Shown in pieces: positions 3,031 to 12,552 of a stretch of DNA of 34,141 nt. Both the position numbers and the translations under genes were made by a program. Source of the DNA: Klebsiella phage ST13-OXA48phi12.2; the sequence record MK422452.1. One strand, 5' to 3'. How positions within the stretch are numbered: the first letter of the stretch is position 1; each line of letters opens with the position of its first letter. The notes beneath the pieces are model-generated. The model worked only from the letters and a program-made list of their open reading frames with translations. It was not told where the DNA came from and did no database searches.

Positions 3031-3843
3031 TTAGATGGAGCCTTCGTAGATAGGCAGTTCATCGCCGAGCTGGTTTTCCATATCGGCTACGATCTCCTGG
3101 AAGGCATGCTCAATGATTTTTTTCGGCTCGATCAGCTCATACCAGAGGACCAGCTGACCGTCGCGCAGGCGGTAGCGAATTCGCGCATCAATCTGGTACG
3201 GTGCGCCATTATGGAAAGGCGCGATTGCCAGGCTGATTTTTTCCGGGATTTTGGTATTGCCTGAGCCGGATTTATCATCGCTGTACTGGAACTGACAGGT
3301 TCCGTCCTGCAGGCGCTTAACCGACTTGAACTCAACTTTCCTTGTCTCCTGGAAGGCGAGTACCATTTCCAGGAGATCGGTACCGGACGGGCCTTTATAG
3401 TTATCGCTAATCGGCGCGATGTTCTGGATGTTGTTTTCCAGAAACTCGGCGAAGTCGATCTGATTCATCTTGTTACCATCAGACCCCACCCATGCTTTCC
3501 AGTCATCAGAGAAAGGACAGTCATAAACTGCTTTGTGCATTCCCCAGTGTGGGTTATCGGCGTCCTGGTGGAAGTCCAGCACCGCTACGATCCGGGTTTT
3601 GGTCTTGTCGGCGAAAACAACAGAACGCGCATCACGGAATCGCTGGATATATGCGATTAGCGAACCGGGGGAAATCAGGTTTGTATTCTGGCGAATACGA
3701 GACGGGGCAATCTGGAGGCTTTCGAGCGATTTGATATCGAAGCCATCCGGGACGACGACAGACGGGATGTCGGTATTAGTTTTCAGCGTTGCAGCAACCA
3801 GATCGCGGATGTCGTGCACGGCAGAGCCTTCAATTTGAGACAT
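3031..3843 (-). CDS. DUF2303 family phage protein (YfdQ-like)
   Basis: 270 aa. Its length and sequence character match the YfdQ/DUF2303 family found in CPS-53-like early regions. Recognised from memory; needs an HMM check. Confidence 0.7.
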   Translation of the reverse strand: MSQIEGSAVHDIRDLVAATLKTNTDIPSVVVPDGFDIKSLESLQIAPSRIRQNTNLISPGSLIAYIQRFRDARSVVFADKTKTRIVAVLDFHQDADNPHWGMHKAVYDCPFSDDWKAWVGSDGNKMNQIDFAEFLENNIQNIAPISDNYKGPSGTDLLEMVLAFQETRKVEFKSVKRLQDGTCQFQYSDDKSGSGNTKIPEKISLAIAPFHNGAPYQIDARIRYRLRDGQLVLWYELIEPKKIIEHAFQEIVADMENQLGDELPIYEGSI

Positions 3844-4261: not shown

Positions 4262-4411
4262 TCAGCAGGGATCGCCTTTCTGGGTAAGAAGCCTGTACAA
4301 CCAGCTCTGCCGCCAGAAGCGAACGAATGATTTAGGGTTGCGAACAGCCTGCACACCGCGAGGGACGCGCATCAGATCGCCGTAAGGGAAATTAACGTTA
4401 CGGAAGGTCAT
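4262..4411 (-). CDS. 49-aa basic small protein (MTFRNVNFPYGDLMRVPRGVQAVRNPKSFVRFWRQSWLYRLLTQKGDPC)
   Basis: Not in the track because it is under 60 aa. GGTGA lies 5 nt upstream of the ATG at 4411. Its stop is followed by the RBS of the next gene. It would be the first gene of the early-left operon after the AT-rich island. Confidence 0.4.
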   Translation of the reverse strand: MTFRNVNFPYGDLMRVPRGVQAVRNPKSFVRFWRQSWLYRLLTQKGDPC

Positions 4412-4431
4412 ATTAATCACCGATTAATTAG

Positions 4432-4460
4432 GTATCCGGCAGGAGTTGAACCCGCGCTGG
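4432..4460 (-). other. tRNA/tmRNA-like 3' fragment (T-arm GCGGG-TTCAACT-CCTGC plus acceptor-like tail). It is not a complete tRNA and may be a relic attachment-site fragment
   Basis: The minus strand reads ...CAGCGCGGGTTCAACTCCTGCCGGATACC. This contains a canonical T-loop (GTTCAAcTC) with a 5-bp stem. GCGGGTTCAACTCC is identical to the tmRNA 3' region as I remember it. No cloverleaf can be completed upstream. Confidence 0.3.
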
Positions 4461-4685
4461 GTTGGGCAGCCCAGCCAACACCGGGAGCGGACATATTGAA
4501 TAAAAAGGGCGGTTACCCAACAGAACACTATCCTCTTCCTCCTGTTTGATTGGTGGAATACTGGATAACCGCCAAGTGAAAAGCACTCGCCTGTATGAAA
4601 AAACATTGTTATGCATACAGCTTTGTTGATCACTCTTTAACCAAGGTGATAGAATGGTGAATCCTCACCTTCAGAAGGGTTAAAT

Positions 4686-5600
4686 ATGCTTTACATGAAA
4701 GAAAATGGTGTATTGATCAAACTGGATAGCTGGGAGCAGGTTTATTCAAGACCTAATTTCATTAAAGACTTAGACCTAAAAGATAAAAAACTAAAAGCAC
4801 TAATTGGTTACTACAAAAATGAACCTCCACGTAAGTGTGGTATTAAAAGCTGCCACAGCAGTCATATGAAGGGAGGGATCGTCATTACAGAGGATGATTT
4901 CGAAGCCTCAATTGGTCACATCTGTGGTAGTAAAATATTTCAAGAAAAATTCGATGATTTAATTAAACAACTTGAAAAAGAAGTTGATTTCGAAATTTAT
5001 AAAGAGGCTGTGGCAAGTCGTAAGTCAAGGCTTTTTGAATATTGGAATAAAGCCGCCGCGCTCACATCTGGGAAAAACGGTATCCTCAAGCTTGCCGAAA
5101 AAATTTCTGACATTAAAAATGCCTTAGTTGCTGGTAGATATGCCGCAACCGAATTAGTCAGAATGGCATCTAACCAGCAGACAATAGTAACGAAAGAAGT
5201 CTGGGTTGAGAAAAAGAAAAAAGAACTCACTGAAGAAGAGGCAAGCAGTGGTGAGAAAAAATACAAAATAGAAACTGTAGTTTGTGGGCAGATAAAAAAT
5301 ATCGAAGTTCTACTAGCCGCGAACGATTTAAAAAGACTTTACAATGAAGAGATTGAGTCCGTGATTAAGGGGCTTGAAAAGCTGGATCTACAGACTGCCT
5401 CACCAAGTCAAATTAAAAACATTGGGCGTTCTGTATCCTCTTTGGATGTCAGACTAGAAACAGCAGCAAAGTTGAAGGAGCTTGCAATAGGCTTTTTGAC
5501 CTACGATAACCTGTATCCAATGCTTGAGAAAATGCATCCTATGGATACGATCAGTCGTAAGGATCTTGAGTTATATGAGAATTTTATAAAGTCCCTTTAA
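4686..5600 (+). CDS. AT-rich 304-aa protein of unknown function. It has an N-terminal Cys/His cluster (C-x4-C-H-x2-H ... H-x-C) and a long K/E-rich helical C-terminal region. Candidate lysogen-expressed exclusion/defence moron
   Basis: A long ORF with markedly lower GC than its neighbours. It is on the plus strand, antisense to the PL operon. AGAAGGG lies 7 nt upstream of the ATG. Its own promoter-like TTGATC-18-TAGAAT has a TG extension. Its own rho-independent terminator lies just downstream. Confidence 0.7.
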   Translation: MLYMKENGVLIKLDSWEQVYSRPNFIKDLDLKDKKLKALIGYYKNEPPRKCGIKSCHSSHMKGGIVITEDDFEASIGHICGSKIFQEKFDDLIKQLEKEVDFEIYKEAVASRKSRLFEYWNKAAALTSGKNGILKLAEKISDIKNALVAGRYAATELVRMASNQQTIVTKEVWVEKKKKELTEEEASSGEKKYKIETVVCGQIKNIEVLLAANDLKRLYNEEIESVIKGLEKLDLQTASPSQIKNIGRSVSSLDVRLETAAKLKELAIGFLTYDNLYPMLEKMHPMDTISRKDLELYENFIKSL

Positions 5601-5809
5601 TCCTTCACTGTGGGCAGCAATGCCCACTTTTTATATTCATGTGGATGAATCGGCCCCACATTTGTCATGAAACATACAAAACCGCTAAGCTCATCAAAAA
5701 AAGCAGTCGCAACGAGATAATCGTCATCATGGTTTATCAACAGAAATTGTTGACCTATGTCATCCTCAAAGGGAAGCTCTTCTGGAGTATTAAAAACAAT
5801 GTTGGTCAT
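5597..5809 (-). CDS. 70-aa strongly acidic AT-rich small protein. It is the first ORF downstream of PL/nutL but is not N-like
   Basis: ORF track protein MTNIVFNTPEELPFEDDIGQQF... is rich in D/E. There is an AAGGA RBS about 10 nt upstream. Its stop overlaps the stop of the 304-aa gene by 4 nt (TTAA). Confidence 0.5.
   Translation of the reverse strand: MTNIVFNTPEELPFEDDIGQQFLLINHDDDYLVATAFFDELSGFVCFMTNVGPIHPHEYKKWALLPTVKD
5610..5634 (+). terminator. rho-independent terminator of the 304-aa gene (GTGGGC-agcaat-GCCCAC + TTTTTAT)
   Basis: A perfect 6-bp GC-rich stem followed by a T-run, 10 nt after the stop codon. It lies inside the 3' end of the convergent 70-aa ORF. Confidence 0.6.
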
Positions 5810-6031
5810 ATTTATATAATCCTTATCGGTTTTTTATTCAGCCCAACCCCCTCACATCAAAGGGGCTGGAATAAATCATTTTGCGCTTGCACACTTCCCC
5901 TGCCAGTGTTCCCCGTTCACGCACGATTGAGATCGTGGCTAACCCTCACACCGACCGGATCGCACCCGGTGATACGTCGCATTAAAGCGCAGGGGTCTAA
6001 ACAGGTTTCATGTGCTGTTCCGACTTTGCTG

Positions 6032-6045
6032 ATTGTTAAAGAGCG
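6032..6045 (-). promoter_or_regulatory. nutL-type boxA (CGCTCTTTAACAAT on the minus strand), about 55 nt downstream of the predicted PL start. It is followed by a hairpin (AACAG-cacatgaaac-CTGTT) as a possible boxB
   Basis: A 14-nt match to the boxA consensus (rrn boxA TGCTCTTTAACAATTTATCA; lambda nut boxA CGCTCTTA...). It is read directly from the reverse complement of 6027-6047. Confidence 0.55.
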
Positions 6046-6105
6046 GCATTGCTTCAGCGGGCCCCTGTCGTAACGTTTACGGCTGGGTACCATTCCGCTG
6101 TTGAT

Positions 6106-6165
6106 GTAACCGAATGTACCTTTAGTTACCTTTGCCGTCAAGGTTGTTTTGTACCTTTAGTTACC
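6106..6165 (-). promoter_or_regulatory. OL operators and PL promoter. Direct repeats TGTACCTTTAGTTACC at 6115-6130 and 6150-6165, plus GTAACcgaatGTACC. Minus-strand -35 TTGACG (6136-6141) and -10 TACATT (6113-6118), 17-nt spacer
   Basis: The same 16-mer, one mismatch away, recurs between cI and cro at 6925-6940. The half-sites are GTACC and GTTAC (GTAAC). The promoter hexamers overlap the repeats. Confidence 0.5.
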
Positions 6166-6174
6166 AGAAGGCGC

Positions 6175-6200
6175 AAAAAAAAAGCCGGAGTGATTCCGGC
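6175..6200 (-). terminator. rho-independent terminator immediately after the cI stop (GCCGGAatcaCTCCGGC + T9 on the minus strand)
   Basis: A perfect 7-bp stem and nine Ts, 18 nt after the cI stop codon at 6218-6220. Confidence 0.75.
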
Positions 6201-6217
6201 TGTATGAAAATGGGGGC

Positions 6218-6877
6218 TTAGATGTTTTGTGTGATTTGGACGACTCTTCCGATTATCCGGCAGTTTCCGTCAATTTGAATTGGCTTGAATGCGGGGTTTA
6301 AAGGCATCAGGTACGCATATGGGCTATCCCATACCAGTTTTTTTACCGTTGCTTCTGTTGAACCATCCAACATAGCAACAACAACTTTCCCATACAGGTC
6401 GTCAATTTGTCCGTAATGAGGTTCGACAATAACTATCGACCCTTCTGGTATTGAAGGTATCCCGTTCGGGTTTGTCATGGATTCGCCACGAACTACAAGT
6501 CCGAAAGCTTCGTCTGAAACATTTGCAGTGGTTTGGGTCCAGGAAATCACATCAGTTAGTCTTGAGCTTGAATAAGTTTCAGTCCATGTGCCTGCTTGTA
6601 CAGCAGAAATAATAGGGATCGCAACAGGAGGTTTCAGGTATGGAATTACCTTCGTGTCATCAACTACGACATCACCTTCGCCGTAGAGAATCCACTCCGG
6701 AGTAACCTGAAGAGCAAGTGCAAGCTGGTGGAGGTTCTCTCCATCAGGTTTAGTTGTCCCGCTTTCCCATTTTGTAACCGACACCCTACTAACCCCCAGC
6801 TTTTTAGCGAGCGTTTGTTGTGTGATGTCAAGCTGAACCCTACGGGCGCGGATTCTATCTTTCATTTCATTTCTCAT
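6218..6877 (-). CDS. cI: cI-like prophage repressor (N-terminal XRE HTH plus C-terminal S24 LexA-like peptidase)
   Basis: The HTH segment is QQTLAKKLGVSRVSVTKWESG. The C-terminal part contains a GESM serine motif and a conserved Lys (KKL). It is divergent from cro. Like lambda cI, it appears leaderless or has a weak RBS. An alternative start is ATG 6865. Confidence 0.9.
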   Translation of the reverse strand: MRNEMKDRIRARRVQLDITQQTLAKKLGVSRVSVTKWESGTTKPDGENLHQLALALQVTPEWILYGEGDVVVDDTKVIPYLKPPVAIPIISAVQAGTWTETYSSSRLTDVISWTQTTANVSDEAFGLVVRGESMTNPNGIPSIPEGSIVIVEPHYGQIDDLYGKVVVAMLDGSTEATVKKLVWDSPYAYLMPLNPAFKPIQIDGNCRIIGRVVQITQNI

Positions 6878-6968
6878 GTAACCAATGTTACTTGAAGTGG
6901 TGGTAACTTTTATTTGCTATTTAATGTACCTTTTGTTACCTTCAGATCATTAAGTAACAGGAGTAACT
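6878..6968. promoter_or_regulatory. OR region between cI and cro. Palindrome GTAACcaatGTTAC (6878-6891), GGTAAC half-site (~6901-6907), TGTACCTTTTGTTACC (6925-6940) and GTAACaggaGTAAC (6954-6967). Presumably contains PR and PRM
   Basis: Repeated GTAAC/GTTAC/GTACC half-sites share their consensus with the OL repeats. The 91-bp divergent intergenic region is typical of lambdoid immunity regions. Confidence 0.55.
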
Positions 6969-7166
6969 ATGCGCAAACATGAAGTCATAGAGTATTTCGG
7001 CGGAGTATCTAAAACCGCCAGTACTTTAGGGATCTCTCATCCGGCTGTCTGCCGCTGGGGCGAGGTGATCCCTGAGAAACAGGCGTTTGTGATCGAGCGA
7101 ATCACTAACGGAAAGCTCAAGTACGACGCCAGCCTTTATCAAAAGTCTACAGATTCTGCGTCATAA
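6969..7166 (+). CDS. cro: Cro-like small HTH repressor
   Basis: 65 aa. AGGAG lies 7 nt upstream. The HTH is SKTASTLGISHPAVCRWGE. It is divergent from cI. Confidence 0.75.
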   Translation: MRKHEVIEYFGGVSKTASTLGISHPAVCRWGEVIPEKQAFVIERITNGKLKYDASLYQKSTDSAS

Positions 7167-7191: not shown

Positions 7192-7662
7192 ATGGTAGAG
7201 CAAAGCTTAAAAGAAGTGGTGAAGGCAATGTGCAAAGCATATCCAGGAGGCCGCGAAGCTATGGCTGGCGCTCTAGGGATGACGCTCACGCAGTTCAATA
7301 ACAACCTGTACGAGAAAAATGGATGCCGTTTCTTTGAAGTCGCTGAACTTGAAGCGATGGAGGACATTTCTGGTACAGCTGAGCTTGCCGATTACTTCGC
7401 GAAAAGACGCGGCGCATTGCTGGTGGATGTACCAAAGCTAGAAGACCTGGATCAGGTCGAACTATTCAATAAAGCCATGAAGACAGCCGCCATGCGTGGG
7501 CATGTTGATCTGGTCATCAACCTTGCGCTTGCCGATGGTGTGATTGATGAAGCTGAAGCTGATGAAATCAGGCACTACCACAGAAAACACCTCGCGGCAC
7601 GAGAAGAAGAAGTGAAATCCATCCTTGCAGTCTTTGGCCGACGAAAACCAAAGCGAGAGTAA
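7192..7662 (+). CDS. CII-like phage regulatory protein (CP76 family)
   Basis: 156 aa. AAGGAAA RBS. Position immediately after cro. Sequence character (TLTQFNNNLYE...ELEAMEDISG) resembles CP-933-type CII proteins as I recall them. Confidence 0.55.
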   Translation: MVEQSLKEVVKAMCKAYPGGREAMAGALGMTLTQFNNNLYEKNGCRFFEVAELEAMEDISGTAELADYFAKRRGALLVDVPKLEDLDQVELFNKAMKTAAMRGHVDLVINLALADGVIDEAEADEIRHYHRKHLAAREEEVKSILAVFGRRKPKRE

Positions 7663-7697: not shown

Positions 7698-7976
7698 ATG
7701 TATCAGGACGAATATTTCCACGTGACTATGCCCACGGTTTTTGCTCGTGAGGACGCCCCGTGGATTAAAGAGCAATTGGCAACACTCCCGGCAGGTATGC
7801 GGGAAAAAATCGCGATGGCGTATGCGCAGGCGTACCAGGAAGCGTTCGATGCTGAGCCGGTGTCATTCCGGCAGCAGAACGCCGCACGACGGACGGCAAA
7901 TCGCCGATTGCGAGAGTTTTGCACGAGGTATACCCCAGCGGTTAGGGGATATACGTCGCTCCCACCCAGGGTTTGA
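7698..7976 (+). CDS. hypothetical protein (92 aa) at the start of the replication module
   Basis: A strong AGGAGG RBS lies 6 nt upstream. It has no recognisable motif and could be a remnant of a replaced initiator gene. Confidence 0.45.
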   Translation: MYQDEYFHVTMPTVFAREDAPWIKEQLATLPAGMREKIAMAYAQAYQEAFDAEPVSFRQQNAARRTANRRLREFCTRYTPAVRGYTSLPPRV

Positions 7977-11517: not shown

Positions 11518-12158
11518 ATTACGATCTCATCTACTGTGATCCGCCGTGGGAATACGGCAATCGAATTAGCAACGGCGCAGCCTGTAATCATTACAGCACA
11601 ATGAGCATTGAAGACCTGAAACGGCTCCCTGTCTGGTCTCTGGCTGCTGATAACGCCGTACTGGCGATGTGGTATACGGGGACCCATAACCGCGAGGCTG
11701 TAGAACTGGCTGAATCATGGGGTTTCCGGGTCAGAACAATGAAAGGCTTTACCTGGGTAAAACTGAATCAGAACGCCGCTGACCGCTTCAACAAGGCACT
11801 AAACGCCGGAAAGCTGGTGGACTTCAATGATCTTCTTGAGATGCTGGACCGTGAGACGCGCATGAACGGCGGCAATCATACCCGGAGCAATACAGAAGAT
11901 GTCCTGATAGCGACCAGGGGAACCGGACTAACCCGCGCCAGCGCATCGGTAAAACAGGTTGTTCACACCTGCCTCGGTGAGCACAGCGCTAAACCGTGGG
12001 AAGTAAGGAACCGACTGGAGCAATTATACGGTGATGTGAAGCGGATCGAGCTATTCGCTCGGGAAGAGTGGAAAGGATGGGACCGCTGGGGAAATCAATG
12101 CAACAACAGTATCGAAATTATTACCGGACTGATTAAAGAGGTGAACCATGCAGCGTGA
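11514..12158 (+). CDS. MT-A70 family N6-adenine DNA methyltransferase
   Basis: A DPPW catalytic motif lies at the N-terminus (YCDPPWEY). The ATG overlaps the ninG stop (ATGA). Typical of nin-region methyltransferases. Confidence 0.85.
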   Translation: MNYDLIYCDPPWEYGNRISNGAACNHYSTMSIEDLKRLPVWSLAADNAVLAMWYTGTHNREAVELAESWGFRVRTMKGFTWVKLNQNAADRFNKALNAGKLVDFNDLLEMLDRETRMNGGNHTRSNTEDVLIATRGTGLTRASASVKQVVHTCLGEHSAKPWEVRNRLEQLYGDVKRIELFAREEWKGWDRWGNQCNNSIEIITGLIKEVNHAA

Positions 12159-12552
12159 TATTCAACTGGTACTCGAACGGTGGGGAACCTGGGCTATTAG
12201 TGAAGGCTCACAGGTTGACTGGTCACCAATTGCAGCGGGTTTTAAAGGCCTCCTGTTAAATACCTCAAAGTCTCGCGAGTCATGTTGTGACAATGATGGC
12301 CTTATTGTAGACGCTGCCGTAGGAATGCTTAAACGAGCTGGCCGGGATGATGAGTTAAATCTGGTGATGTTGCATTACATGCATAACGTTTCTAAATCGA
12401 CTATTGCCCGCTGGGAAAAATGTTCAGAGGGAAAAATACGTAACAGGTTAATGATAGCCGAAACGTTTATTGATGCCTGCATCATTATGAGTGGTGCCAG
12501 ATTAGAAATGGATGATTGGGCCCATAAAAAAGAAGTAGAGAAAGTTGCATAA
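12148..12552 (+). CDS. Q: late-gene antiterminator Q (phage-21/Gifsy type, Phage_antitermQ family)
   Basis: The N-terminus MQRDIQLVLERWGTWA closely resembles the MRDIQMVLERWGAWAA start of the Q21-type antiterminators I recall. It lies immediately upstream of the late promoter/terminator and lysis cassette. Confidence 0.75.
   Translation: MQRDIQLVLERWGTWAISEGSQVDWSPIAAGFKGLLLNTSKSRESCCDNDGLIVDAAVGMLKRAGRDDELNLVMLHYMHNVSKSTIARWEKCSEGKIRNRLMIAETFIDACIIMSGARLEMDDWAHKKEVEKVA

What the first reader, a model, noticed from the sequence alone, without database searches (positions are those of the whole stretch)
5840..6170. PL/OL with a near-consensus boxA but no recognisable N gene downstream
A predicted leftward promoter overlaps two 16-bp operator repeats. 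The hexamers are TTGACG and TACATT with a 17-nt spacer. A 14/14 consensus boxA (CGCTCTTTAACAAT) lies about 55 nt downstream, followed by a hairpin and a further GC-rich, highly structured roughly 200 nt.

This is the architecture of a nutL site. Yet the first downstream ORF is a 70-aa acidic protein. It has nothing like the Arg-rich motif of N proteins, and no N-like ORF is found elsewhere in the window.

The structured segment (hairpins CACGAT-ctca-ATCGTG at 5919-5934, ACCGG-gtgcgat-CCGGT, CAGCCC...GGGCTG at 5840-5871) could be a put-like cis-acting antitermination RNA. Alternatively it could be a processed leader.
Basis: partly seen in the sequence, partly recalled or inferred. Interest (0 to 1): 0.55.

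Follow-up and report, generated by a model that had tools for sequence, protein, structure and literature searches.

The report
Conserved boxA-led RNA after PL
Just after the leftward early promoter of this prophage lies one copy of a widespread, previously uncatalogued folded RNA that starts with a host Nus-factor binding site and most likely lets transcription run through stop signals without a phage N protein.

Summary
PL (TTGACG-17-TACATT, 6141-6113, minus strand) sits between two 16-bp operator copies, and an exact rrn-type boxA (6045-6032) lies about 60 nt into the transcript. No N-like gene and no second boxA/nut site occur in the window.

The "structured 200 nt" is not a loose set of hairpins. 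It is one member of a conserved RNA family. The core is about 150 nt (6045-5898): boxA, a spacer with an invariant ACAGC, then a multi-helix junction (P1-P5). A 3' hairpin P6 (5869-5843) is present in a subset. Covariation is strong: 97-99% of cells paired, 15 of 24 core pairs and 6 of 8 P6 pairs with compensatory changes. Rfam has no match.

The family is single-copy. It always lies just downstream of PL and a LexA-type cI. It occurs in phi80 (inside the authors' "nutL regulatory signal"), HK225, APSE, Edno5, and O104:H4-type Stx2 phages reported to lack N. Identical RNAs precede unrelated genes. HK639 carries its put-like antiterminator RNA at the same position.

Best reading, inferred and not shown: a cis-acting, Nus-recruiting antitermination RNA that needs no phage N here. 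It is not homologous to put. Some relatives do encode N.

The parts
6183..6201 (-). Intrinsic terminator ending the cI-like repressor transcript, immediately upstream of OL/PL
   Evidence: AGCCGGAATCACTCCGGCT followed by a T-run
6150..6165 (-). Operator copy 1 (GGTAACTAAAGGTACA)
   Evidence: read directly; a related GGTAAC..GGTAC repeat occurs at PR/PRM (6900-6950)
6113..6141 (-). PL promoter: TTGACG, 17 nt, TACATT. Operator copy 2 (6130-6115) overlaps the -10
   Evidence: a TTGAC -35 aligns in relatives (A1)
6032..6045 (-). boxA, CGCUCUUUAACAAU. It matches the rrn boxA at 13 of 14 positions and opens the conserved element
   Evidence: U.UUUAACAA is invariant in 9 phages found by BLAST without requiring boxA
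5898..6045 (-). Core RNA element (covariance model R1 hit). Spacer with invariant ACAGC.
- P1: 6005-6000 with 5904-5899
- P2: 5994-5992 with 5914-5912
- P3 hairpin: 5989-5987 with 5980-5978
- P4: 5977-5976 with 5943-5942, 5972-5966 with 5954-5948, and 5964-5963 with 5957-5956; invariant loop CGAUC at 5962-5958
- P5 hairpin: 5937-5932 with 5927-5922
   Evidence: 153 bits, E 3e-32; 97% of cells paired, 15 of 24 pairs compensatory, slid controls 29-44%; P5 is a hairpin in every lineage
5836..5897 (-). 3' extension present in about 28% of family members: GUGUGCAAGCGCA, an A-rich linker, hairpin P6 (5869-5862 with 5850-5843), then CUGAAU
   Evidence: 98.8% of cells paired, 6 of 8 pairs compensatory
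5597..5809 (-). First PL gene here: a 70-aa acidic protein. It is rare cargo, not a partner of the RNA. It travels with the convergent 304-aa gene at 4686-5600 (+)
   Evidence: no family; 4 homologues, Citrobacter farmeri; 71-aa plus 304-aa pair recurs; absent from the other 133 loci
4499..4573 (-). Candidate leftward terminator that PL transcripts must pass. A 13-bp stem GGCGGUUAUCCAG/UUGGGUAACCGCC is followed by CUUUUUAUU. About 1 kb of leftward RNA with no credible ORF (antisense to the 304-aa gene) precedes it
   Evidence: fold; compensatory changes against E. coli 118UI. Inferred, not shown to terminate

Best explanation
Window 6045-5836 (minus strand) encodes the 5' leader of the PL transcript. 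It is one member of a conserved family of cis-acting RNA elements, the phi80 nutL type.

Proposed mechanism:
1. As RNA polymerase leaves PL, the first roughly 60 nt are followed by a consensus boxA. This recruits host NusB/NusE(S10), and with them NusA/NusG.
2. The adjoining ~110-nt multi-helix domain (P1-P5, with P6 in this subgroup) folds and stabilises a termination-resistant elongation complex that stays tethered to the nascent RNA.
3. The complex carries transcription through about 1 kb of leftward RNA with no credible ORF and a terminator-like hairpin. It then reaches the downstream genes (49 aa, YfdP-like, DUF2303/YfdQ, ParB-like).

In this phage no N protein takes part. The RNA domain does the job that N plus boxB does in lambda, or it reinforces an rrn-like Nus complex.

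Shown: the element, its fold, its fixed position and orientation, its single copy, its independence from any linked gene, and the absence of N here.

Inferred: Nus recruitment, antitermination, and N-independence.
For: 1. Consensus boxA at the 5' edge, invariant across the family.
2. A real folded RNA on the leftward strand. 97-99% of cells are paired, with many compensatory pairs and G-U pairs that fit only this strand.
3. Fixed context. The element lies 25-60 nt after a PL-like promoter, downstream of and co-oriented with an S24-type cI in 114 of 134 loci. There is one copy per locus in 1 Mb.
4. In phi80 the element (M11919 698-848) lies inside the 278-bp "nutL regulatory signal" defined by the original authors. 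Annotated terminators tL1A and tL1B lie downstream.
5. HK639 shares the same 48-nt 5' leader with phi80 and HK225. It then carries its annotated putL-like antiterminator RNA where they carry this element.
6. No linked protein partner. 17 loci have an RNA 100% identical to phi80's, but they have 10 different downstream sequences. phi80 N is in 7 of 134 loci and lambda N in none. The only protein family shared by nearly all loci within 6 kb either side is cI.
7. P13374 and phi191 Stx2 phages carry the element and are reported to lack N (PMC4122784).
8. In the window there is no arginine-rich ORF and no second boxA or nutR. A long leftward stretch with no credible ORF and a terminator-like hairpin lie downstream.
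9. boxA alone is known to give Nus-dependent anti-Rho protection in rrn operons (review PMC12360218).
Against: - No experiment bears on this element outside the coarse phi80 mapping. In phi80 the authors attributed antitermination to a 98-aa N protein.
- Edno5 and PSTCR7lys have the element and also encode arginine-rich N-like proteins, so N-independence is not general.
- A small conserved basic ORF accompanies the element in APSE-like loci. HK225_041 has a basic N-terminal stretch. Cryptic N analogues therefore cannot be excluded.
- boxA/Nus complexes can also repress or promote Rho termination, as at suhB and hisG.
- Natural variants L253 and L255 keep the same downstream genes but lack the core element. 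It is therefore dispensable in at least some prophages, which may be defective.
- No strong canonical intrinsic terminator was found leftward in the window by the simple scan.
Confidence: 0.5

Rival explanations
1. It is an elaborate nutL. A phage-encoded N-type protein, highly diverse and often unannotated, binds one of its hairpins (for example the A-rich P3 loop) and assembles a classical N/Nus antitermination complex. In this window the partner is simply unrecognised or lies outside the window.
For: - phi80 record: a "nutL regulatory signal" next to an "N protein".
- Edno5 encodes a PHROG-271 N-like protein (E 1e-10) and PSTCR7lys an obvious arginine-rich protein, both in the PL operon downstream of the element.
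- A conserved 44-aa basic ORF occurs in APSE-like loci.
- HK225_041 has a KKRQKPRKQ stretch.
Against: - Identical RNAs precede 10 unrelated downstream sequences.
- No protein other than cI is shared.
- There is no nutR or second copy in any locus.
- In Edno5 and PSTCR7lys the nutR boxB is not repeated on the left. In lambda, P22 and 21, nutL and nutR boxB are near-identical (from general knowledge, not checked here).
- The window has no arginine-rich ORF in 5.8 kb of PL operon or in the PR operon.
- Stx2 phages with the element are reported to lack N.
Confidence: 0.2
2. It is a Nus/boxA-dependent negative or autoregulatory leader. It would be an attenuator that lowers or times PL-operon expression, as at suhB or in lambda N-leader translational repression, rather than promoting readthrough.
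For: boxA complexes are known to promote Rho termination or repress translation in some contexts. In the window subgroup P6 sits just before the first ribosome-binding site.
Against: The distance to the first gene, and that gene's identity, vary from about 30 to over 300 nt. There is no conserved terminator or RBS-sequestering platform. The positional swap with a proven antiterminator class in HK639 points the other way.
Confidence: 0.1
3. It is a stable RNA with another job. It might be processed from the PL leader to act in trans (sponge, decoy or anti-defence RNA), or it might be a ligand-sensing riboswitch-like domain. On this reading boxA is incidental or serves only to protect the RNA's synthesis.
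For: The fold is a compact multi-helix junction with invariant junction and loop nucleotides (ACAGC, UAGA, CGAUC, AACAC) and a GNRA-capped P5. This is typical of RNAs with tertiary structure. The element behaves as a self-contained module between mosaic breakpoints.
Against: There is no terminator or processing signal at its 3' edge. It always lies at the very start of an operon rather than as a free-standing gene. No Rfam family matches. No expression platform is evident.
Confidence: 0.15
4. The conservation reflects DNA-level function (a recombination boundary or a protein-binding site) or hitch-hiking, not an RNA.
For: Mosaic breakpoints fall exactly at the edges of the element.
Against: Compensatory base changes in six helices, and strand-specific G-U pairs, cannot be explained at the DNA level.
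Confidence: 0.03

Closest known systems
phi80 nutL ("nutL regulatory signal", GenBank M11919; nutL boxA/core in JX871397)
   Same: Homologous. Model R1 scores 154 bits at M11919 698-848, inside the annotated 661-938 signal. Same position after PL and the same boxA-first layout.
   Different: phi80 has a 98-aa protein called N immediately downstream; this window does not. phi80 lacks the P6 extension. The fold of the phi80 site is not annotated in either GenBank record read here, and no description turned up in the paper searches run.
Lambda/P22/21 nut sites (boxA + boxB) with N protein
   Same: Promoter-proximal position in the PL transcript. boxA is the first element. A role in early-operon readthrough is likely.
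   Different: There is no short GNRA-like boxB 5-10 nt after boxA. The folded domain is about 110 nt. The element is single-copy, with no nutR. No arginine-rich N is present here, and the RNA is uncoupled from any downstream gene.
HK022 putL/putR and the HK639 putL-like antiterminator RNAs
   Same: A cis-acting folded RNA at the start of the PL transcript in phages without N. HK639 carries its put-like RNA at the same position behind the same 48-nt leader. HK639 also has only a left copy annotated.
   Different: No sequence or structure similarity. put is about 70 nt with two stems and is described as needing no dedicated trans-acting protein factor (PMC9378689). This element opens with a consensus boxA and has a multi-helix junction.
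rrn operon leader antitermination signal (boxB-boxA-boxC; NusA/B/E/G, SuhB, S4)
   Same: boxA is essentially identical to the rrn consensus (UGCUCUUUAACAA). The predicted task is protecting long, poorly translated RNA from Rho.
   Different: The order and nature of the flanking elements differ. There is no similarity beyond boxA. The context is phage, not ribosomal.

Membership tests
Lambda-type N/nut system | boxA matching GCUCUUUA near the 5' end of the early transcript | tested here: met
   CGCUCUUUAACAAU at 6045-6032
Lambda-type N/nut system | boxB: a short hairpin with an N-binding loop a few nucleotides 3' of boxA | tested here: not met
   The first covarying hairpin (P3) starts 56 nt after the first base of boxA. 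The CUGUU segment next to the spacer pairs long-range (P1), as shown by the GUAAC/GUUAC swap in Edno5
Lambda-type N/nut system | A promoter-proximal gene for an arginine-rich N protein | tested here: not met
   The 70-aa first ORF is acidic. There is no arginine-rich ORF and no lambda, P22 or phi80 N homologue in the window
Lambda-type N/nut system | A matching second site (nutR) in the PR operon | tested here: not met
   no second boxA or element in the window, nor in 100 related loci
HK022-type put RNA | About 70 nt, two stem-loops, with sequence or structure similarity to putL/putR | tested here: not met
   no model hit in the HK022 early region or in HK639 with filters off. The fold here is a multi-helix junction of about 150 nt
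HK022-type put RNA | Acts alone on RNA polymerase (beta' zinc-binding domain), without Nus factors | not testable with these tools
   The consensus boxA argues for Nus involvement, which would be a difference
HK022-type put RNA | Located just downstream of PL in a phage lacking N | tested here: met
   positional equivalence with HK639 putL-like RNA
phi80-type nutL element (family defined here by model R1) | Full-length match to the covariance model with helices P1-P5 and a 5' boxA | tested here: met
   153 bits, model positions 1-154 of 154. The 115 chance pattern matches scored nothing
phi80-type nutL element (family defined here by model R1) | Single copy, 25-60 nt downstream of PL, co-oriented with and downstream of an S24-type cI | tested here: met
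phi80-type nutL element (family defined here by model R1) | Confers terminator readthrough | not testable with these tools
   Only the GenBank annotation of the phi80 fragment is available
rrn-type antitermination leader | boxA consensus UGCUCUUUAACAA | tested here: met
   12 of 13 positions identical
rrn-type antitermination leader | boxB-boxA-boxC order; assembly with SuhB and S4 | not tested
   The architecture differs by inspection, since boxA comes first. The protein requirements are unknown
Any Rfam family | A match at or near the gathering score | tested here: not met
   no hit on the element. The best nearby hits are 14-21 bits against cut-offs of 40-70

The most novel reading that the evidence does not exclude
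This is a third class of phage early-antitermination signal, beside N/nut and put. It would be a ~150-nt junction RNA that uses a consensus boxA to load the host Nus complex and then, with no phage protein, renders RNA polymerase termination-resistant. It would serve as a portable module at the head of PL operons across Enterobacterales prophages, including phi80 and the O104:H4-type Stx2 phages that lack N.
Probability: 0.35. Interest if true: 0.8.

Novelty: new variant of a known kind. Interest (0 to 1): 0.62.

Why it matters
Early antitermination in lambdoid phages is textbook biology built on two solutions: N/nut and, rarely, put. Many sequenced lambdoid phages and prophages have no recognisable N, among them the Stx2 phage of the 2011 O104:H4 outbreak. 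How their early operons escape Rho and terminators is unexplained.

A conserved, covarying, boxA-led RNA sits at exactly the nutL position in more than 130 phage and prophage loci. These include phages of Escherichia, Klebsiella, Edwardsiella, Providencia and Hamiltonella, and genomes of Enterobacter and Kosakonia. This gives a concrete, directly testable candidate.

If it works with host Nus factors alone, it would link the rrn and phage antitermination systems. It would also provide a compact portable anti-polarity module. Finally, it would re-open the 1985 assignment of phi80 N.

Tried and rejected
- **Rfam.** A gathering-threshold search of the whole window and an E-value search of 5500-6300 gave nothing on the element.
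- **Single-sequence folding.** It was not significant, and the minimum-energy fold disagrees with the covariation-supported fold.
- **Genome-contig scan.** My pattern was too loose. 115 of 120 loci were chance matches, which then served as a negative control for the model. The taxonomic survey is therefore incomplete.
- **King et al. 2011 (HK639 put).** The paper could not be read. I relied on the GenBank annotation of HK639 instead.
- **Arginine-rich motif scan downstream of the element.** It was noisy: 72 loci on the sense strand against 62 on the control strand. Only individually checked cases (Edno5, PSTCR7lys, the APSE-like 44-aa ORF) are used.
- **Window ORF 7698-7976 (+).** It has an ARRTANRRLRE stretch, but this lies at the C-terminal end of a PHROG-852 protein of unknown function in the PR operon. 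It was not pursued as an N candidate.
- **Weak AgvB-like Rfam hit at 6177-6231.** This is just the cI terminator.
- **mEpimmI \"Nus-dependent non-lambdoid\" phages.** They were considered but use an arginine-rich N-like Gp17 and ordinary nut sites.
- **Local hairpin ACAG/CUGU after boxA.** It competes with P1 and is not maintained in Edno5, so it was left out of the model.

Full report
**Context**

The window is a lambdoid prophage. A LexA/S24-type cI-like repressor lies at 6218-6877 (minus strand). A cro-like gene (6969-7166, +) and a CII-like gene (7192-7662, +; PHROG 101) diverge from it. Further right are a helicase and primase, a Q-like antiterminator (12148-12552; PHROG 79), and lysis and structural genes. 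The finding is the start of the leftward early operon.

**Checking the observation**

- The cI terminator is at 6201-6183.
- Two copies of GGTAACTAAAGGTACA lie at 6165-6150 and 6130-6115.
- The promoter is TTGACG, 17 nt, TACATT at 6141-6113.
- CGCTCTTTAACAAT lies at 6045-6032, about 61 nt into the transcript.

The promoter match alone is no better than chance for a 2.5-kb region (4 found, 3.6 expected). Its position between operator copies directly after the cI terminator makes the assignment sound. The exact 12-nt boxA occurs once in the window, and about 0.004 would be expected by chance.

The first downstream ORF is a 70-aa acidic protein (5597-5809) with no Pfam or PHROG family.

A six-frame scan found no arginine-rich N-like ORF in the PL or PR operons. 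tblastn with lambda, P22 and phi80 N found nothing in the window. There is no second boxA on the rightward strand.

The claim of a "highly structured" leader is not supported by folding energy. The z-score is -1.56 for 297 nt and -0.08 for the core.

**What the structured segment is**

BLASTN against phage genomes showed that 6046-5836 is conserved at 70-79% in 123 records. These include phi80, HK225, Hamiltonella phages APSE-1 to -8, Edwardsiella phage Edno5, Providencia phage PSTCR7lys, Klebsiella phage KO-TP1 and about 65 Stx2 phages (P13374, TL-2011c, phi191, VT2phi_272). An E. coli 118UI prophage of the same type as the window matches at 86%.

In every case examined the match lies in an unannotated stretch just downstream of cI and a PL-like promoter.

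**Structure and covariation**

Sixteen diverse representatives were aligned (A3). They support one structure.
- boxA comes first.
- A 20-30-nt spacer follows, with an invariant ACAGC.
- P1 is a long-range closing helix, CCUGUU/GGCAGG.
- P2 is CCC/GGG.
- P3 is a hairpin with an A-rich loop.
- P4 is a long hairpin capped by an invariant CGAUC loop.
- P5 is a variable hairpin, capped by GAGA in most lineages.

On A3, 96.6% of cells pair and 15 of 24 pairs show compensatory changes. Partner-slid controls pair at only 29-43%. On 63 distinct sequences aligned to the model the figures are 97.7% and 15 of 24. That alignment was fitted to the model's structure, so its counts lean towards it.

Frequent G-U pairs fit only the leftward strand.

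P5 has a different sequence in each lineage but is always a hairpin.

A 3' extension ending in hairpin P6 occurs in 37 of 132 loci, including the window (5897-5836). P6 pairs in 98.8% of cells, with 6 of 8 pairs compensatory.

The third (ACCGG/CCGGU) is not conserved, and the real helix there is CACCGG/UCGGUG.

**Family behaviour**

A covariance model (R1) finds exactly one copy per locus.
- The window hit is 6045-5898 at 153 bits.
- 100 of 100 IMG/VR loci covering 1.0 Mb have a single copy.
- Nothing is found in PR operons.

The 115 chance matches produced by my over-loose genome contigs pattern scored nothing. Five true members were recovered, among them Enterobacter hormaechei and Kosakonia oryziphila.

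Rfam has no match. A 2025 review of Rho termination and antitermination lists nut, rrn, put, RfaH/ops, Q/qut, RARE and RNAP aptamers, but nothing like this element.

**Partner proteins**

The genes after the element are unrelated.
- Window: a 70-aa acidic ORF.
- HK225: HK225_041 (PHROG 5305).
- phi80: "N" (PHROG 25091, no arginine-rich motif, no Pfam family).
- P13374: a Rha/Ash-type regulator.
- APSE: P53.
- KO-TP1: gp28.

Seventeen loci carry an RNA 100% identical to phi80's, yet they have ten different sequences 60-460 nt downstream. phi80 N is present in only 7 of 134 loci and lambda N in none.

Clustering all ORFs within 6 kb either side shows that only the S24-type cI, upstream on the same strand, is shared by nearly all loci (114 of 134).

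The 70-aa ORF of the window is rare cargo. It travels with the convergent 304-aa gene. E. coli 118UI has other DNA in their place, and homology resumes further left at about window 4575.

The literature states that P13374 and phi191 lack N, cII and cIII (PMC4122784).

**Evidence that cuts the other way**

Edno5 encodes a PHROG-271 N-like protein with a P22-N-like C-terminus. PSTCR7lys encodes MNSKKRQERRRKAWIAERRN.... Both lie in the PL operon.

Both phages also have a classical boxA+boxB nutR after cro. Their nutR boxB is not repeated on the left, where only the large element is found.

APSE-like loci contain a conserved 44-aa basic ORF.

In phi80 the original record calls a 278-bp fragment containing the element the "nutL regulatory signal". 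It calls the next gene N.

N-independence is therefore well supported for the window and many relatives. It is not a property proven for the family.

**Link to antitermination**

HK639 shares a 48-nt 5' leader with phi80 and HK225, differing at two positions. It then diverges exactly where they start the boxA element. There HK639 carries its annotated "putL-like antiterminator RNA". This is a cassette swap at one position.

The two RNAs are unrelated. R1 finds nothing in HK639 or in the HK022 early region with filters off.

phi80 has annotated terminators tL1A and tL1B downstream.

In the window, the PL transcript must cross about 1 kb with no credible leftward ORF, antisense to the 304-aa gene. 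It must also pass a 13-bp hairpin followed by CUUUUUAUU (4573-4499), which shows compensatory changes against E. coli 118UI. Only then does it reach the next leftward genes.

Protecting such RNA from Rho is what boxA/Nus complexes do at rrn operons.

**Conclusion**

The most likely function is a cis-acting, Nus-recruiting antitermination element at the head of the PL operon. In this phage it would act without an N protein (confidence about 0.5).

Rivals:
- a nutL for cryptic, diverse N analogues (0.2);
- a stable or ligand-sensing RNA with another role (0.15);
- a Nus-dependent negative leader (0.1);
- DNA-level conservation (0.03, contradicted by covariation).

Natural variants L253 and L255 keep the downstream genes but have lost PL and the core element, retaining only P6. 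The element is thus a separable module and is not indispensable for prophage persistence.

I rate it a new variant of a known kind (early-operon antitermination signals). The RNA family was not found in Rfam or in the literature searched. It is clinically relevant and directly testable.

Noticed in passing
window 4431-4517 (-): A tRNA-like fold inside the PL operon. It has an acceptor-like stem GGUAACCG/CGGAUACC, a long variable arm, and a T-arm GCGGG-UUCAACU-CCUGC resembling the tRNA or ssrA 3' end. Rfam tRNA-Sec scores 20 bits (E 0.19, well below its cut-off) and ARAGORN finds nothing. It is conserved with the E. coli 118UI prophage. It might be an internal att-like remnant or a processing signal.
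   Followed up: partly
window 4499-4573 (-): A long hairpin (13-bp stem with a large internal loop) followed by CUUUUUAUU. It shows compensatory changes against E. coli 118UI. It is a candidate tL terminator of the leftward operon, missed by the simple scan because of its loop size.
   Followed up: partly
window 4271-4420 (-): A conserved 49-aa basic, Trp-rich ORF (MTFRNVNFPYGDLMRVPRGVQAVRNPKSFVRFWRQSW...) directly after the tRNA-like element and before the YfdP-like gene. It is annotated as hypothetical in E. coli 118UI and has no PHROG family.
   Followed up: partly
window 4686-5600 (+) with 5597-5809 (-): A convergent, end-overlapping gene pair: 304 aa (PHROG 7003, unknown function) and the 70-aa acidic ORF. 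The pair recurs as a unit in Citrobacter-type prophages and is absent from the otherwise syntenic E. coli 118UI prophage. It looks like a moron or accessory cassette inserted just after the RNA element.
   Followed up: partly
L253 3242-4000 and L255 (Logan contigs): Natural variants in which PL and the core RNA element are replaced by a reverse-oriented 154-aa gene. Homology to the window resumes exactly at the P6 hairpin. Mosaic breakpoints therefore flank both the core and P6.
   Followed up: partly
L007 1040-1076 (-) and L006 750-790 (-): PSTCR7lys and Edno5 have unannotated classical nutR sites (boxA plus boxB hairpins GCACA-UGCAUCG-UGUGC and GCGCC-GAUACA-GGCGC) after cro. They also have N-like genes that are annotated only as hypothetical, or with an over-long start (L007 3527-3724; L006 about 3330-3557).
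   Followed up: yes
L004 about 420-555, plus L009, L026, L084: A conserved unannotated 44-aa ORF (M.K.KIL...PMNN.VRRLRYLRK.EALKRN...P.T.Y) with a basic helix-like stretch. It is found in the PL operons of APSE-like and Providencia-like phages at varying distances from the element. It is a possible mini N-like peptide.
   Followed up: no
window 7698-7976 (+): A 92-aa PHROG-852 protein of unknown function in the PR operon with a C-terminal ARRTANRRLRE stretch. It is conserved in 24 of the related loci.
   Followed up: partly
L023 10455-10600: A truncated or broken copy of the element (116 bits). Its sequence departs from the family within P5 and the 3' part of the fold is lost, which suggests decay in a defective prophage.
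   Followed up: no
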